Made by a program: the position numbers and the translations under genes
Virus record (IMG/VR): IMGVR_UViG_2585427766_000004
DNA from: a virus
Taxonomy: Duplodnaviria > Heunggongvirae > Uroviricota > Caudoviricetes
Reading direction: 5' to 3' (one strand)
Length of the DNA stretch: 4,976 nt
Notes under the pieces: model-generated
What the model saw: the letters and a program-made list of their open reading frames with translations, nothing else
Databases searched by the model: none
Told to the model about the DNA's origin: nothing
Part shown: piece after piece, positions 1 through 4,976 of the stretch
How the letters are laid out: each line of letters opens with the position of its first letter
Numbering within the stretch: position 1 is the stretch's first letter

Positions 1-233
1 ATTTGCTCCGCAATAATCTGGCTCTGGTTGTTCGGGTCAACACTCAGAAGATTCAGCGGCGCGATGCGTTTCTGGTTAATCAGTTTTGTCTGTGCCGGGT
101 CTGGTGTCGGCAAGACACCATTCGCATCACCAACGGCCATTTGCGTCAGATTCAGCTTACTGCCAAGCATCGTCGCGTTAGCCAGCCGTGCTGCGCCCTG
201 ATTAGTCAGAATGGCGTAGTATTTCACTGTCAT
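1..233 (-). CDS. H: Tail fiber protein, P2 gpH-like; N-terminal 77 codons only, gene continues past the window edge at position 1
   Basis: Not in the ORF track because it is truncated. The reverse complement of 1..233 reads as an open frame from ATG (233..231): MTVKYYAILTNQGAARLANATMLGSKLNLTQMAVGDANGVLPTPDPAQTKLINQKRIAPLNLLSVDPNNQSQIIAEQ, with no stop. The pattern (G-A-A-[KR]-L-A...M-A-V-G-D) matches the conserved N-terminal region of P2-type tail fibers as I recall it. The ATG overlaps the TGA stop of the upstream gene I (ATGA), and the position after V-W-J-I is the canonical one. Confidence 0.8.
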   Translation of the reverse strand, partial: MTVKYYAILTNQGAARLANATMLGSKLNLTQMAVGDANGVLPTPDPAQTKLINQKRIAPLNLLSVDPNNQSQIIAEQ

Positions 234-838
234 GCGTTTACTCTCAGGTTATCAATTAAATGAATGGCCGAGGCCGGGAAATAATCCCCTCCGACAATAA
301 TGGCCTCCGGGGTGTAGGGATAAACCGTCAGGGCATCGCCGTGATAGCATCCCGTACCAACGAAAATCTTTCCGTTCACACTCAGGCTGATCGCCAGCCC
401 CGTCAGATGGCGACTTACTGGTTTTGCATCCGCAATAAGGCGCTCAAGTTCCTGATACATTTCATCGGTGATGCCCTGATCAAGTACTCCGACAACAATG
501 CGAAATGTTCCTGGCTCCTCGTTGAGTTGCCACCACTCCTTTACTTCAATCAGGTAGCCGAGAGGCTCCACGGCTCTTCGCAGTGCGCTGATGGTCCCTT
601 TGTGTCGGTGTATCAGCCATGCATCACGAATCACCTGTCGCTTTGTCTCTTCCGGCCAGTTGCGATCCCAGCGGTCAACGGAAAATGCCCAGGCGAGATA
701 AGGCAGCAGGTGCACCGGGCAGGTGTCCGGCGACCACAGCGTGTTGAGGTCTACCGGGATGTCTGTAATGCGCGTTCCGACAGCTTCGGCACAACGCATG
801 AAATTGCTGGCTGATGGTGGTAACAGTGAATTACTCAT
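230..838 (-). CDS. I: Baseplate assembly / tail protein I (P2 gpI-like), about 202 aa
   Basis: ORF 230..871 translates to ...MSNSLLPPSASNFMRCAEAVGTRITDIPVDLNTLWSPDTCPVHLLPYLAWAFSVDRWDRNWPEETKRQVIRDAWLIHRHKGTISALRRAVEPLGYLIEVKEWW..., which fits the P2 gpI family. The ORF-track start at 871 is a GTG; I prefer the first ATG at 838, which is preceded by AAGGTGG 8 nt upstream and overlaps the J stop by only 8 nt. Confidence 0.85.
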   Translation of the reverse strand: MSNSLLPPSASNFMRCAEAVGTRITDIPVDLNTLWSPDTCPVHLLPYLAWAFSVDRWDRNWPEETKRQVIRDAWLIHRHKGTISALRRAVEPLGYLIEVKEWWQLNEEPGTFRIVVGVLDQGITDEMYQELERLIADAKPVSRHLTGLAISLSVNGKIFVGTGCYHGDALTVYPYTPEAIIVGGDYFPASAIHLIDNLRVNA

Positions 839-1727
839 TGCGCCCACCTTCGCTGATGGTGAACGACTCACAGCGCGCCGCCTGTATGTCGCTGATGGCC
901 ATATTCTGTGTGGGTTCGATTATCTCCACACGTTGCACACCGTGCACATGCAGTGCGGCAGCAATGGCGGACAACGCCACGTCCTGACCGATAAGCCCCT
1001 GCTCAGCCAGCCACTTCCTGAACGACGATTCCGCCGCAGCCAGAATAGGTTCGGATTCCGGACCGGGGTAAAAGTACAGTTTTGCATTTAGCCGCCATGT
1101 CACGATTCTGGCGCGCTGTACAGTAAGGCGGTCGGCCACCGGGCGGGTATCCTCTGCATTCAGAACGGCGCGAACGGTATTAAGCAACGCCTCCGTTGCT
1201 GTGCCGTCGCCTTCAGTGGACAGGATGGAAACCGTCACATTTGCCGGAGACGGACTGATAGCCCGCGCATCACGCACCAGACCGCTGGCGCTGCGGGCAA
1301 AATACTCGTATGCACCTGACGGGCCAGCAACGCTCAGACCGTCATACGCCCGCTGCGCCCGCAGTCTCAGCGAGGTGTCGCTCTCCATCACCGCGTCGGT
1401 GGTACCCGTTGCCGGAGTGATGGTCAGGCGCTTTGTGTTCATATTGCCCGCGAGATTGTCCAGGTCTGTTCCGGCGCTGTGGCTTAACATGCAGGCGCGT
1501 GCACCCTCATTAACCCGCTGGCGTAACAGCATTTCACGAAAAGACATGGTTTGAGCGATAACGTTCAGGGGTTCCGATTCCAGCTCCAGCGCGGCGGAGA
1601 CGGCTTCACGCTGTTCGGCAGGATAGGACGCAATCATCATGGCCTTTGTGTCAGCCAGAATTGCCTCAAAATCAGGCTTCGCGATGATGGCGGGTTCCGG
1701 TAACTGGGAAAGGTCAACAGCAGGCAT
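831..1727 (-). CDS. J: Baseplate assembly protein J (P2 gpJ-like), 298 aa
   Basis: ATG at 1727 preceded by GAGGGAG. The protein begins MPAVDLSQLPEP and contains ...LELESEPL...RQRVNEGARA...TKRLTITPA...DAVMESDTSLRLRAQ...GLSVAGPSGAYEYFARSASG...SPSPANVTVSILS...TRPVADRLTVQ...LYFYPGPESEPI...GVQRVE..., characteristic of the baseplate J family. Size and position between W and I match P2. Confidence 0.9.
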   Translation of the reverse strand: MPAVDLSQLPEPAIIAKPDFEAILADTKAMMIASYPAEQREAVSAALELESEPLNVIAQTMSFREMLLRQRVNEGARACMLSHSAGTDLDNLAGNMNTKRLTITPATGTTDAVMESDTSLRLRAQRAYDGLSVAGPSGAYEYFARSASGLVRDARAISPSPANVTVSILSTEGDGTATEALLNTVRAVLNAEDTRPVADRLTVQRARIVTWRLNAKLYFYPGPESEPILAAAESSFRKWLAEQGLIGQDVALSAIAAALHVHGVQRVEIIEPTQNMAISDIQAARCESFTISEGGRNE

Positions 1728-1730
1728 GAT

Positions 1731-2081
1731 TTACTCCCTCAGCGTGATGGTTAACTCAACATTCTGCATGGTCTGCATGACAGTGCCCGACAGCGTCACC
1801 CCGGCGCGGCCTCCTGCCTTCCAGACAACGTCGATGGCGTCCAGGGCAATGCGGGGTTCCCATCGTGTCAGCGCAATCACGGCAGCACTCATGCATTGCA
1901 GACGCGTGGTGTTATTCATGGGTTCGTCAATCAAATCAGGTACAAGGCTGCCATATTCCCGTCGCATAACCCGGCTGGCCAGCGGGGTGGTCAGGATGTC
2001 CCTGACTGACTGTTTCAGGTGCTCCGTATCGTTCAGGTTTCCCGTCCCGTCCGGATTCATTCCTGTGTAGCGGGTTGTCAC
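1731..2081 (-). CDS. W: Baseplate wedge protein W (P2 gpW / GPW-gp25 family), 116 aa
   Basis: Protein MTTRYTGMNPDG...LKQSVRDILTTPLASRVMRREYGSLVPDLIDEP...LTRWEPRIALDAIDV...VTLSGTV..., of gpW size and motif pattern. The start is GTG (2081..2079) with AGGAGG 6 nt upstream, and it overlaps the V stop (GTGA). Confidence 0.85.
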   Translation of the reverse strand: MTTRYTGMNPDGTGNLNDTEHLKQSVRDILTTPLASRVMRREYGSLVPDLIDEPMNNTTRLQCMSAAVIALTRWEPRIALDAIDVVWKAGGRAGVTLSGTVMQTMQNVELTITLRE

Positions 2082-2659
2082 TGCGGGCCTCCTGTCGAAT
2101 CGCTGCCACCTTTAACGCCACCGTGCTTATGCGTATGCACTGTGATGCCGTTTGAGGTGAAATCGCCGCCGCTGTGCGTGATATTGCCGCTCATCTTTCC
2201 CCCTTTTGTGACGTCAAGCGTCTCCGTTCTCAGAAGGTTTGTGCATTCCACGACGGGCGTGTCCAGTTTCACGCTGACGGATGCCTGTAAAGTGGCCGTT
2301 TTTATGCCGCTGGCGCTCAGTGCGCCTGCGTCCGCGTCGTAGCGGAACACCGCGCCGTCCGGCGCGCTGATCACGATTTCTTTCAGGCTTTTGCCGGGGG
2401 CCGGACTGGCATCACTCCACAGGCTGCCAATTATCATGGCGGTTTCCGGGTTGCCGCCAATGCAGGCAATTACTACCTGTTCGCCTAGTGATGGCGGCAG
2501 CCACACATTGAAGGCTCCCGCGCGCGTGGTGTTCCAGCGCAGCCAGCCTGTTTCCAGTTCGCCGCTGCGAACGCGCACGCGCCAGGACTTCTCATCAACT
2601 TCAGAGATGATCCCGGTGCGGATGATATTGCTCAGCAGTCGCATGAGTTCTGCGCTCAC
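2078..2659 (-). CDS. V: Baseplate central spike / assembly protein V (P2 gpV-like), 193 aa
   Basis: Protein ...NIIRTGIISEVD...GELETGWLRWNTTRAGAFNVWLPPSLGEQVVI...ISAPDGAVFRYDADAGALSASGIKTATLQAS...LDTPVVECTNLL...KGGKMSGNITHSGGDFTSNGITVHTHKHGG... matches the gpV fold description, including the C-terminal HxH tip. The start is GTG (2659..2657) with GGAGG 7 nt upstream, overlapping the S stop (GTGA). Confidence 0.9.
   Translation of the reverse strand: MSAELMRLLSNIIRTGIISEVDEKSWRVRVRSGELETGWLRWNTTRAGAFNVWLPPSLGEQVVIACIGGNPETAMIIGSLWSDASPAPGKSLKEIVISAPDGAVFRYDADAGALSASGIKTATLQASVSVKLDTPVVECTNLLRTETLDVTKGGKMSGNITHSGGDFTSNGITVHTHKHGGVKGGSDSTGGPQ
2088..2093 (-). promoter_or_regulatory. Shine-Dalgarno (AGGAGG) for gene W, embedded in the 3' end of V
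   Basis: Minus strand reads ACAGGAGGCCCGCA-GTG, with a 6-nt spacer to the GTG start at 2081. Confidence 0.5.
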
Positions 2660-3291
2660 CGTACAGCCTCCGCAATCCGGCCCAGCACCGTGTTATAAAT
2701 CAGGCGCTCATCTGCCTGGCTGATACCCAACAGCTCACGTACCGGGTAATCGGTGAAAATGCCCGGCGCAACCTGATCGCGCTCACCGAACTGATGAACG
2801 CGTGCAATACGTGCGGCCACGCCGCTGTAACCTACCGTCACACCGGAGGCATCTGCACGGGCTTTCAGGTAGCGGGCGGTGCGCAGTTTTACGAACATGG
2901 GGACGCGCTTTGTGCTGTCCTGGTTGATGCGCCGGGTGCGTATTTCCAGAAAACGGTCGATGTCATCCCGGTAAAACGTGCGGATATTGTTTTTATCCTC
3001 ATCCCACCCGGTGATGGTTCGCCCGTATTTCCCCGTGTCGTGATGCCAGTTTTTCAGCGTGCGTGCTTCGTTATTCCAGATAAAGCGAATGCGTTCCTGT
3101 ATCCGGGTTACGCGGCGTCTGCGTGGTGTCCACGCGGTCCCGTCCGGCGCTTTCTGTGACCGGATACGCGCCTGCTGGGCGCGGCGTAAATCCTGTGCCA
3201 GCTTTCTGGCGATGTTATTGATGGCCTGCTGATTCAGGCTGTCGCGGATGGCCTCAAAGGTTTCATCCACGCGGGTGAATGCCTTATCCAT
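2656..3291 (-). CDS. S: Tail completion / virion morphogenesis protein S-like (Phage_tail_S family), about 211 aa, apparently expanded
   Basis: Contains RIRSQKAPDGTAWTPRRRR near the N-terminus and GYSGVAARIARVHQFGERDQVAPG...YPVRELLGISQADERL near the C-terminus, which I recognise as the two conserved blocks of gpS-type proteins. It sits in the S position between R and V. The first ATG is at 3291 (8-nt overlap with the R stop); a GTG at 3300 is the alternative start. Confidence 0.75.
   Translation of the reverse strand: MDKAFTRVDETFEAIRDSLNQQAINNIARKLAQDLRRAQQARIRSQKAPDGTAWTPRRRRVTRIQERIRFIWNNEARTLKNWHHDTGKYGRTITGWDEDKNNIRTFYRDDIDRFLEIRTRRINQDSTKRVPMFVKLRTARYLKARADASGVTVGYSGVAARIARVHQFGERDQVAPGIFTDYPVRELLGISQADERLIYNTVLGRIAEAVR
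2667..2671 (-). promoter_or_regulatory. Shine-Dalgarno (GGAGG) for gene V, embedded in the 3' end of S
   Basis: Minus strand reads GCGGAGGCTGTACG-GTG, with a 7-nt spacer to the GTG start at 2659. Confidence 0.5.
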
Positions 3292-3751
3292 CGCTTTCAC
3301 CCCACGTCACATCCTGGAATACATGCGACCAGTCGCCTTCGGAAGATGGCAGGCGGGGTTTTGGCTCCGGCAGGTGTTCTGCCTGCGGTGTGCCCTGACT
3401 GTTGCGCGTGATGCGAACGCGTTCCCGCAGGGGGAGCGTAAACAGGAGATCGGCGCTGTCATCGTCATTGATAACGGCGGAGAATTTGATGTCCTGATTA
3501 CGCTCAGGGTTGAGCAACAACTGTGGCTGATTTTCGGATAACCACGCCAGCAGCGGCAGCGTGAGGTCGTCCAGCTCTCCGGCGTAATCCATGACAAACA
3601 TCACCATCTGATAGCGGTAAACAAACGAGGGCGTTTCCCCGGTCGTTTCAATGTTGCCGCTCTCCACGAAAATGGTGAATTTCTCGGGATTAGCCTGGCA
3701 CCACCGACACCCATGAAGCATGGACTCTCGCAGACTGTTTGTCTTAAACAT
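3284..3751 (-). CDS. R: Tail completion protein R-like (P2 gpR family), 155 aa
   Basis: ATG at 3751 with AGGAG 10 nt upstream (GGAGAG leaves an 8-nt spacer). The protein MFKTNSLRESML...NPEKFTIFVESGNIET...DYAGELDDLTLPLLAWLSENQPQLL... matches the gpR pattern as I recall it (LR..L...NP..IFV.NG.I...D..G..D.L..P.LAWL.ENQP). It is exactly gpR length and in the R position upstream of S. Confidence 0.75.
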   Translation of the reverse strand: MFKTNSLRESMLHGCRWCQANPEKFTIFVESGNIETTGETPSFVYRYQMVMFVMDYAGELDDLTLPLLAWLSENQPQLLLNPERNQDIKFSAVINDDDSADLLFTLPLRERVRITRNSQGTPQAEHLPEPKPRLPSSEGDWSHVFQDVTWGESDG

Positions 3752-3761
3752 CTGTTTTGCT

Positions 3762-3766
3762 CTCCT
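3762..3766 (-). promoter_or_regulatory. Shine-Dalgarno (AGGAG) for gene R in the 23-nt nanS-R intergenic spacer
   Basis: Minus-strand sequence between the nanS stop and the R ATG reads AGGAAGAGCAGGAGAGCAAAACAG-ATG. Confidence 0.5.
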
Positions 3767-3774
3767 GCTCTTCC

Positions 3775-4976
3775 TTATGCTGCGGGATTATTGATTTCCA
3801 GCACCAGGCTGCCGATATCGACGCCATACGTTGCATTTTTGGTAATATCCGTCAGCGTCAGCGCATTCAGCCCCAGTGTCAGACTGTCTTTTATGACCTG
3901 GAATGCCGGGCCAGCCACTCCATTCAGTTTCGGAGTAACCGTGGCACTGCCGGCGGTGAACACCAGCTCCAGCGTCTGCCAGTCGTTACTGTAATTCCCG
4001 AACTCGCCCAACTTTGTGTTTCCGGCTTTCTTGTGATGCATCAGATTCAGTTTGCCGTCTGTGGTCTGGGTGAAGAACGACATCAGGAACGGGTTACCAG
4101 TCCCGGTCATCGCCACGACGTCAGGTAACGCTACATCGGTATACAGATAAATTCCCAGACCGAACTGGTTGTTGGTCAGTGCGCCTGACAGTCGAAACTT
4201 ACAGCTCAGTCTGCCACCCCGTGTCAGCAGGGAGACTGCGTCATCCACCGGATGCATCAGGGACCAGGTTTTATTGCTCTGCTTGGTAACCTTAAACACA
4301 CCATCTTCCAGCGCAACACTGCCGCCGGTGATGGTCCAGCCCTGCGCAGCAGCCTCTCCGGCTGTCGGCAGCAGGGAGACTGTACGAACGGATGTGTCAC
4401 CATCAGACGGCCCCGATGGAGTGTCGCCGCCGGGCGAGGGTTTAATCTCCGGTGCGGTACCGCTGATGAAGGCGCTGGTTCGACCAACTGCGTTCAGAAT
4501 AGCGGTTGCCAGGCGATCCGAAATAATGCCCCTGCGCGCCCATGAACTGAAATGTGTCGGACGATTTGACGATACCCAATTACCATTACTACGGGATTGC
4601 GCGCCGTAATAACCTGCATCAGCAATATCCGGGTCTTCTGCCGGTAAGTTGGTGGGCGTGTTGTTGCCGTTACCGTCGGTCATGAACGGCACAAAGAAAA
4701 CGTTGTCGCTCTCCCTGTTTTTGTACGCGCCGTAGACGGAGTCATACTGTGTGCCGTATGTGTTTTTCCAGTAATACGTCGTGTCGCCACAAATCCACGG
4801 TACAACTGCAGCACTGCCGCCATGGCACTGCGCGTTAAATCCGGAAAGGTCAGTACGGAACTGCTTCAGCATGGCCGTGAACAGGTCCGGTTGCTGTGCG
4901 TAGGTGGCAGCGCTCATGTCAAATTCGCCCTGCATCCAGCACACCGCCAGCAACACATTTTTCGGGTTCTTCTGTA
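3775..4976 (-). CDS. nanS: NanS-type sialate (9-O-acetyl-N-acetylneuraminate) O-acetylesterase, prophage NanS-p-like; 5'-truncated by the window edge; C-terminal part of the SASA esterase domain plus a linker and a roughly 200-aa C-terminal domain
   Basis: The frame is open to the window edge; the ORF-track start at 4956 is only a GTG, and in-frame codons continue upstream (QKNPKNV...). Translation shows motifs shared with E. coli NanS/YjhS: CWMQGEFD, PWICGDTTYYWK, YGAYKN, NLPAEDPD, GYYGAQSRS, HFSSWARRGIISDR. This is followed by a P/G/S/D-rich linker and about 200 further residues. TAA stop at 3775..3777. Confidence 0.8.
   Translation of the reverse strand, partial: QKNPKNVLLAVCWMQGEFDMSAATYAQQPDLFTAMLKQFRTDLSGFNAQCHGGSAAVVPWICGDTTYYWKNTYGTQYDSVYGAYKNRESDNVFFVPFMTDGNGNNTPTNLPAEDPDIADAGYYGAQSRSNGNWVSSNRPTHFSSWARRGIISDRLATAILNAVGRTSAFISGTAPEIKPSPGGDTPSGPSDGDTSVRTVSLLPTAGEAAAQGWTITGGSVALEDGVFKVTKQSNKTWSLMHPVDDAVSLLTRGGRLSCKFRLSGALTNNQFGLGIYLYTDVALPDVVAMTGTGNPFLMSFFTQTTDGKLNLMHHKKAGNTKLGEFGNYSNDWQTLELVFTAGSATVTPKLNGVAGPAFQVIKDSLTLGLNALTLTDITKNATYGVDIGSLVLEINNPAA

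What the first reader, a model, noticed from the sequence alone, without database searches (positions are those of the whole stretch)
3778..4386. About 200-aa C-terminal domain after a Pro/Gly/Ser-rich linker on the esterase: candidate carbohydrate-binding module
After the esterase motifs end (around ...RRGIISDRLATAILNAVGRT), there is a flexible linker (TAPEIKPSPGGDTPSGPSDGDTS, about 4387..4461). A further domain of about 203 residues follows, rich in T/S/G/N/L with alternating hydrophobic patterns, suggestive of a beta-sandwich. The housekeeping NanS ends shortly after the esterase domain, so this extension is specific to the prophage-type protein. A lectin-like or glycan-targeting role is inference only; the domain could also mediate association with the virion or a cell-surface structure.
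Basis: inference. Interest (0 to 1): 0.45.

Follow-up and report, generated by a model that had tools for sequence, protein, structure and literature searches.

The report
Lectin-like tail domain of phage sialate esterase

Summary
Window 3778-4386 (- strand) encodes the last 203 aa of an ORF that runs off the window. A 25-aa Pro/Gly/Ser/Asp/Thr linker (4387-4461) joins it to the C-terminal half of a NanS-type esterase.

The beta-sandwich and candidate-CBM reading is therefore supported at fold level. It repeats a published hypothesis (Franke et al. 2020) for which a 2021 review found no binding evidence. Of the four aromatic residues proposed as the binding site, the window has F, Y, F and L.

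The new points are contextual. The gene is cargo in a P2-like (P88-type) prophage, and the domain core is 97-100% nucleotide-identical to Stx2 phage 86, which indicates cassette exchange.

Verdict: already known, low interest.

The parts
3778..4386 (-). C-terminal 203-aa lectin-like jelly-roll domain (Pfam DUF6645; NanS-p C-terminal domain, phage-86 subtype)
3775..3777 (-). TAA stop codon of the esterase gene. The start of tail-completion gene R is 23 nt downstream, with no convincing terminator between them.
   Evidence: The promoter and terminator scan was at chance level.
4387..4461 (-). Interdomain linker GTAPEIKPSPGGDTPSGPSDGDTSV, rich in Pro/Gly/Ser/Asp/Thr and predicted disordered in a family member
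   Evidence: Translation. The equivalent segment of P0057 (residues 388-408) has pLDDT below 50. The linker is length- and sequence-variable between subtypes.
4462..4976 (-). C-terminal half of a NanS-type SGNH (SASA) sialate O-acetylesterase domain. The ORF continues beyond the window edge.
   Evidence: PDB 3PT5 NanS E 5.8e-44 over fragment residues 2-161. The full-length 626-aa homologue in E. coli TOE17 has DUF1737 + SASA + DUF6645.
4552..4563 (-). SGNH block IV motif RPTH (catalytic His region), the variant reported for Stx2 phage 86
   Evidence: R138 and H141 are invariant in alignment A1. PMC10462455 reports RPTH only in phage 86.
3820..4281 (-). Tract 97-100% nucleotide-identical to orf3 of Stx2-converting phage 86, embedded in a gene whose esterase part is only 62-73% identical. 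This is a recombination tract.
   Evidence: Sliding identity. dS is 0.126 in the C-terminal domain against 1.45 in the esterase part.
3284..3751 (-). Context: P2-type tail completion gene R, immediately downstream. It marks the end of the inserted cargo gene.
   Evidence: In P88-like phages homology with the window stops at 3709, and they have only a 137-bp gap between lysB and R.

Best explanation
Window 3778-4386 (- strand) encodes the C-terminal lectin-like jelly-roll domain (Pfam DUF6645) of a prophage NanS-p-type sialate 9-O-acetylesterase.

Shown here:
- It is a genuine homologue, at about 36% identity, of the crystallised C-terminal domain of phi24B vb_24B_21 (PDB 6YP6).
- It adopts the same ConA-like beta-sandwich.
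- It hangs off the esterase on a 25-residue flexible Pro/Gly/Ser-rich linker.

Inferred: it is a non-catalytic glycan-binding module. It would hold the tethered esterase on its polymeric substrate, O-acetylated sialoglycans such as mucin O-glycans, raising local substrate concentration in the way CBMs do for glycoside hydrolases.

In the full-length protein the N-terminal DUF1737 domain is the capsid anchor in phi24B. The esterase and lectin module would then be projected from the phage head, or act as a soluble enzyme released at lysis.

The ligand is most likely a sialic-acid-containing glycan, because the nearest fold relative outside the family is the sialic-acid-binding lectin domain of V. 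cholerae sialidase. The substitutions at the proposed aromatic site (F, Y, F, L in place of Y, Y, Y, F) suggest a specificity or affinity different from the phi24B subtype.
For: - Architecture: DUF1737-SASA-DUF6645 in the full-length homologue. The linker is disordered in a family model.
- The domain also occurs fused to DUF1737 without any esterase (P0045, P0065). It can therefore function without a catalytic partner, as a binding module would.
- Y80 (equivalent to Y515 of the published site) is nearly invariant. The columns equivalent to Y510 and Y540 are mostly aromatic across the family.
- The C-terminal domain is the most variable and most exchanged part of the protein: 36% against 70% identity to the Sakai type, plus a recombination tract. 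That is typical of ligand-recognition modules.
- Literature: jelly-roll fold and CBM proposal (PMC10462455 and PMC8065619 citing Franke 2020). NanS-p enzymes de-O-acetylate mucin glycans (PMC8065619).
Against: - No glycan binding has been demonstrated for any member of the family (PMC8065619).
- One of the four proposed site residues (F611) is Leu here, and that column varies across the family. Two Tyr are Phe.
- No sequence-level link to CBM40 was found: 14% identity and no profile hit.
- I could not map the sialic-acid-contacting residues of the V. cholerae domain onto the model.
- The full-length model was too poor to show whether the domain is free or packs on the esterase (pTM 0.48).
Confidence: 0.62

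Rival explanations
1. The domain binds a bacterial surface polysaccharide rather than host mucin. Candidates are O-acetylated O-antigen, K1-type polysialic acid and colanic acid. It would then act in phage adsorption or in stripping the cell surface, so the esterase would work for the virion rather than for the lysogen's nutrition.
For: - The protein is a virion component in phi24B.
- PMC8065619 raises de-O-acetylation of LPS as a possibility.
- ConA-like domains combined with SGNH esterases occur in phage tail proteins such as Pseudomonas phages LIT1 and KPP21.
- Distant DUF6645 proteins in Salmonella lie next to tail-fibre and tail-fibre-assembly genes.
- The gene sits in the late operon between the lysis and tail genes.
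Against: - Recombinant NanS-p enzymes are reported to act on Neu5,9Ac2 and mucin glycans and to support growth on them (PMC8065619).
- In phi24B the protein sits on capsid hexons, not on the tail.
- The nearest fold relative binds host-type sialic acid.
Confidence: 0.15
2. The domain is a removable pro-domain or regulator of the esterase. It would pack on or near the active site to shape substrate specificity or inhibit the enzyme, and is released by (auto)proteolysis in the linker after phage release.
For: - Cleavage of the jelly-roll domain from purified gp84 and from stored virions is reported.
- The bioRxiv authors describe the catalytic and jelly-roll domains as both contributing to enzymatic activity.
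Against: - The linker is long, low-complexity and poorly conserved (35% identity between subtypes). That fits a passive tether that is simply protease-sensitive.
- The domain occurs without any esterase (P0045, P0065).
- There is no similarity to known intramolecular chaperone or autoprotease domains.
- The SSP motif suggested for cleavage in phi24B is absent from this linker.
Confidence: 0.12
3. The domain attaches the protein to the virion or mediates oligomerisation.
For: - The protein is virion-associated in phi24B.
- ConA-like domains occur in baseplate and tail proteins.
Against: - Cryo-EM assigns the capsid contact and the hexamerisation to the N-terminal DUF1737 domain, residues 1-54.
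- Peptides from the C-terminal domain disappear from stored, still infectious virions.
- 6YP6 holds a single chain.
Confidence: 0.05

Closest known systems
C-terminal domain of NanS-p / vb_24B_21 (gp84) of Stx phage phi24B, PDB 6YP6 (Franke et al. 2020, J Struct Biol 212:107596); Pfam DUF6645 (PF20350)
   Different: Identity is only about 36%. The window belongs to the subtype of Stx2 phage 86 (91% aa identity). The proposed aromatic site Y510/Y515/Y540/F611 reads F/Y/F/L here. The linker differs in sequence and lacks the SSP motif. The gene sits in a P2-like myovirus prophage rather than downstream of stx in a lambdoid phage.
N-terminal sialic-acid-binding lectin domain of Vibrio cholerae sialidase (PDB 2W68, 1W0O), classed as CBM40 from my own knowledge
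   Different: Identity is 14% and no sequence or profile similarity is detectable. Conservation of the sialic-acid-contacting residues was not tested. The domain order differs, N-terminal in the sialidase and C-terminal here.
L-type / legume-lectin-like domains (VIP36, ERGIC-53, Emp46p/47p, pea and peanut lectins); ConA-like lectin/glucanase superfamily
   Different: There is no sequence similarity. No Ca2+/Mn2+-binding motif was examined. The similarity is at superfamily level only.
Chromosomal E. coli NanS (YjhS), PDB 3PT5
   Same: The esterase part of the window ORF is homologous (E 5.8e-44).
   Different: NanS ends about 5 residues after the esterase domain and has neither the linker nor the lectin-like domain.

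Membership tests
DUF6645 / NanS-p C-terminal domain (PF20350; PDB 6YP6) | Pfam HMM match above the gathering threshold | tested here: met
   72.9 bits against a cut-off of 27, E 3e-20, profile positions 1-115 of 119.
DUF6645 / NanS-p C-terminal domain (PF20350; PDB 6YP6) | Full-length sequence homology to the crystallised domain | tested here: met
   phmmer E 3.4e-31 over fragment residues 204-396 and chain residues 13-218. A family profile gives E 3e-82.
DUF6645 / NanS-p C-terminal domain (PF20350; PDB 6YP6) | [quoted passage not shown] | tested here: met
DUF6645 / NanS-p C-terminal domain (PF20350; PDB 6YP6) | Position C-terminal to a NanS/SASA esterase, after a flexible linker, in a prophage protein with N-terminal DUF1737 | tested here: met
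   The window shows esterase, linker and domain in that order. The full-length homologue has DUF1737 + SASA + DUF6645. DUF1737 itself lies outside the window.
DUF6645 / NanS-p C-terminal domain (PF20350; PDB 6YP6) | Four aromatic residues of the proposed carbohydrate site (Y510, Y515, Y540, F611) | tested here: inconclusive
   The window has F75, Y80, F105 and L171. Three of four are aromatic but two lose the hydroxyl, and the fourth is Leu. Only the Y515 column is nearly invariant family-wide.
Carbohydrate-binding module (functional, CAZy sense) | Demonstrated non-catalytic binding of a defined carbohydrate | not testable with these tools
   No binding data exist for any member, according to PMC8065619. 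This needs glycan arrays or ITC.
CBM40-type sialic-acid-binding lectin domain (V. cholerae sialidase) | Shared fold | tested here: met
CBM40-type sialic-acid-binding lectin domain (V. cholerae sialidase) | Detectable sequence or profile homology | tested here: not met
   Identity is 14%. A family-profile search of PDB at E up to 10 returns only 6YP6 and two chance hits. Pfam gives no CBM or sialidase-lectin hit.
CBM40-type sialic-acid-binding lectin domain (V. cholerae sialidase) | Conservation of the sialic-acid-contacting residues | not tested
   Model coordinates and the 2W68 ligand contacts were not available to the script environment.
Capsid-decoration (virion-anchoring) domain | The domain contacts capsid hexons | not testable with these tools
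   The literature assigns this role to DUF1737, not to the C-terminal domain.

The most novel reading that the evidence does not exclude
The DUF6645 domain may be a true sialoglycan lectin distantly related to CBM40, swapped as a cassette between unrelated temperate phages. The P2-like prophage copy has its own divergent DUF1737 capsid anchor, only 21% identical to the Stx-phage type. It could therefore display esterase plus lectin on a T=7 P2-type head. That would make it a Hoc-like mucus-adherence device spread across myovirus and podovirus lineages of gut E. coli, with subtype-specific glycan preferences.
Probability: 0.2. Interest if true: 0.5.

Novelty: already known. Interest (0 to 1): 0.15.

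Why it matters
NanS-p esterases let pathogenic and commensal E. coli, or their phages, strip O-acetyl groups from mucin sialic acids. If the C-terminal domain is a lectin, it sets which glycans the enzyme, and possibly the virion, is directed to.

For this window the practical gain is a corrected annotation. 'DUF6645 domain-containing protein' can be read as a NanS-p-type esterase with a lectin-like C-terminal module of the phage-86 subtype.

The side observation bears on how mucus-interaction modules spread among gut phages. The gene rides in P2-like prophages in about 7% of complete E. coli genomes and exchanges its C-terminal domain with Stx phages. None of this changes current understanding of the domain itself.

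Tried and rejected
- A profile search of PDB with a 17-sequence domain alignment, to find a sequence bridge to CBM40 or other lectins, returned only 6YP6 plus two chance hits at E about 0.7-0.9.
- NCBIfam gave no match. PHROGs gave only 'unknown function' families 143 and 3591.
- A full-length AF2 model of family member P0057 was meant to test whether the domain packs on the esterase. Overall confidence was too low (pTM 0.48, esterase poorly modelled from a shallow alignment), so it is inconclusive. It showed only a disordered linker and a well-folded C-terminal domain.
- BFVD viral fold search gave only generic ConA-like matches at TM 0.5-0.6.
- The promoter and terminator scan around the gene end was at chance level.
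- Franke et al. 2020 is not held in the library. Its content is cited second-hand from PMC10462455, PMC8065619 and the 2026 bioRxiv preprint.
- Literature searches for '6YP6' and 'DUF6645' returned nothing. 'nanS-p' with 'P2-like' returned only a review that uses both terms; I did not check whether it links them.
- The + strand ORFs overlapping the region (3757-4128, 4169-4609) were considered and dismissed as antisense shadows of a conserved coding region. No homology evidence was sought for them.

Full report
**What is in the sequence**

On the - strand the window carries the late region of a P2-like prophage. The ORF coordinates are and the gene names from the annotation of matching genomes.

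- the start of the tail-fibre gene
- gpI (230-871)
- gpJ (831-1727)
- gpW (1731-2081)
- gpV (2078-2659)
- virion morphogenesis gene S (2656-3300)
- tail completion gene R (3284-3751)
- a long ORF, 23 nt upstream of R, that ends with TAA at 3775-3777 and is still open at the window edge

Its 399 translated residues have three parts.

- Residues 2-161 align to chromosomal NanS, PDB 3PT5, at E 5.8e-44. The match reaches residue 332 of the 337-residue chain.
- Window 4387-4461 encodes the linker GTAPEIKPSPGGDTPSGPSDGDTSV.
- Window 3778-4386 encodes a 203-residue domain rich in L, T, G, A, V, N and S.

NanS does stop just after the esterase domain.

**Identity of the domain**

- It matches Pfam DUF6645 (PF20350) at 72.9 bits, against a gathering score of 27.
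- It matches PDB 6YP6, deposited as 'NanS-p', at E 3.4e-31 over nearly its whole length.
- A profile built from 17 family members hits 6YP6 at E 3e-82 and hits nothing else credibly.
- An AlphaFold2 model built on an 18-sequence alignment has pLDDT 94.4 and pTM 0.90, with 15 beta strands.
- Foldseek gives TM 0.89/0.83 at 35% identity.

[quoted passage not shown] I could not read that paper, Franke et al. 2020. Two open papers summarise it.

- It proposes a site formed by Y510, Y515, Y540 and F611 (PMC10462455).
- PMC8065619 adds that there was no experimental evidence for this as of 2021.

**What the fold adds**

- accessory domains of other sialidases (5mqs, 8hls)
- L-type and legume lectins (Emp47p, ERGIC-53, VIP36, peanut lectin)
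- a phage Dit CBM
- ConA-like enzymes and toxin domains

Foldseek gives the same order.

For a domain tethered to a sialate O-acetylesterase, this makes a sialoglycan the most economical guess for the ligand. It is fold-level evidence only. Identity is 14% and no profile link exists. I could not check the ligand-contacting residues.

**The proposed binding site in this variant**

The numbering offset between the 6YP6 chain and the protein is 422, derived from the alignment. With it, Y510, Y515, Y540 and F611 correspond to F75, Y80, F105 and L171 of the window domain.

- Y80 is nearly invariant across the family.
- The columns of F75 and F105 are mostly aromatic.
- The F611 column is variable.

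The site is partly retained and chemically altered, consistent with a different affinity or specificity. This is inference.

**Family size and architectures**

An exhaustive HMMER scan of 1.84 billion cluster representatives found only 59 proteins at E up to 0.001, many of them fragments. Named hits of the indexed searches are from E. coli, E. albertii, Salmonella and Cronobacter.

Four architectures appear.

- DUF1737-SASA-DUF6645, the NanS-p type
- SASA-DUF6645 with an extra C-terminal domain of roughly 100 residues or more (P0041)
- DUF1737-DUF6645 with no esterase (P0045, P0065)
- DUF6645 plus the extra domain, in Salmonella and Cronobacter proteins that Pfam matches only as DUF6645

One Salmonella example lies just downstream of tail-fibre and tail-fibre-assembly genes of a myovirus-like prophage. 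Because the domain also exists without an esterase, it probably has a function of its own. That fits a binding module better than a catalytic subdomain.

**Virion association**

A 2026 preprint (bioRxiv 10.64898/2026.04.10.717836) reports that phi24B gp84 is a capsid-decorating protein.

- A hexamer of its N-terminal DUF1737 domain sits in the central hexon of each facet.
- Fresh virions carry the roughly 70-kDa protein.
- After months of storage, a roughly 35-kDa esterase fragment remains and peptides from the C-terminal domain are lost.

If anything, the C-terminal domain would be the outermost displayed part.

**Context and mosaicism (outside the finding proper)**

- Window 1-3709 is 95-97% identical to P88-like phages (Xuanwuvirus, Peduoviridae). 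These lack the esterase and have only a 137-bp gap between lysB and R.
- Window 3775-4976 matches Stx phages at about 86%.
- No record in the phage collection covers 80% or more of the window, but 375 of 5426 complete E. coli genomes do.
- In those genomes the gene sits between lysC and R. It is 626 aa in strain TOE17 and frameshifted in strain M1/5.

Domain-by-domain identity of the TOE17 protein:

| Domain | to phage 86 | to VT2-Sakai |
|---|---|---|
| DUF1737 | 21% | 21% |
| Esterase | 80% | 70% |
| Linker | 87% | 35% |
| C-terminal domain | 91% | 36% |

Against phage 86, dS is 1.45 in the esterase part and 0.126 in the C-terminal domain. Window 3820-4281 is 97-100% nucleotide-identical to phage 86. 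This points to recent exchange of the C-terminal domain as a cassette.

The domain type itself is common. It covers at least 80% of the query in 1391 of 5426 genomes, with up to 10 copies per genome.

**Verdict**

- Domain identity, as a 6YP6 homologue with a lectin-like jelly roll, is close to certain.
- Carbohydrate binding is probable (about 0.6) but undemonstrated.

The finding is already in the literature and in Pfam, so novelty is 'already known' and interest is low. The mildly interesting residue is the P2-like prophage context with a divergent capsid-anchor domain, plus the cassette exchange with Stx phages.

Noticed in passing
window 3709-4976; L006 (phage P88) 6357-6495; L002 6775-8655: The esterase gene is a cargo insertion between the lysis cassette (lysB/lysC) and tail-completion gene R of a P88-like (Xuanwuvirus, P2-like) prophage. 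P88-like phages have only a 137-bp gap there. 375 of 5426 complete E. coli genomes carry the combination, and no record in the phage collection covers 80% or more of the window. NanS-p is usually described in lambdoid and Stx prophages.
   Followed up: partly
L002:6775-8655 (- strand), residues 1-53 of the 626-aa protein (outside the window): The N-terminal DUF1737 domain, the capsid anchor in phi24B, is only 21% identical to the Stx-phage versions, while the esterase is 70-80% and the C-terminal domain 91% (to phage 86). The anchor may have been replaced or adapted to a P2-type capsid.
   Followed up: partly
window 3820-4281: This tract is 97-100% nucleotide-identical to orf3 of Stx2-converting phage 86, but the esterase part of the same gene is only 62-73% identical (dS 0.126 against 1.45). 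This indicates a recent recombination tract inside the C-terminal domain.
   Followed up: yes
L001 12775-14654 (E. coli M1/5): The genome copy with the most similar C-terminal domain (99.7%) is annotated as a frameshifted pseudogene. Many database hits are fragments or frameshift products (for example P0031, P0033, P0035), so decay of this gene looks frequent.
   Followed up: no
P0045, P0065; P0041, P0049, P0052, P0068, P0088, P0100; L007/L008 7001-8050: DUF6645 also occurs fused directly to DUF1737 without an esterase. It also occurs followed by an uncharacterised extra C-terminal domain of roughly 100 residues or more in Salmonella and Cronobacter prophage proteins. One of these lies after tail-fibre and tail-fibre-assembly genes. 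Its N-terminus (MASAILLYAGR...) looks like the end of an esterase domain, so it may be a remnant.
   Followed up: partly
window 4552-4563 (- strand): SGNH block IV reads RPTH rather than RSSH or RASH. PMC10462455 reported this variant only for the NanS-p of Stx2 phage 86.
   Followed up: no
window 1-394: Most P88-like phages match the window only from about 395 onward, and only phage 500465-2 matches from base 1. The gpI C-terminus and tail-fibre N-terminus junction is therefore another mosaic boundary.
   Followed up: no
window 3757-4128 and 4169-4609 (+ strand): Long antisense ORFs (123 and 146 aa) overlap the domain-coding region. They are most likely shadows of the conserved - strand gene.
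   Followed up: no
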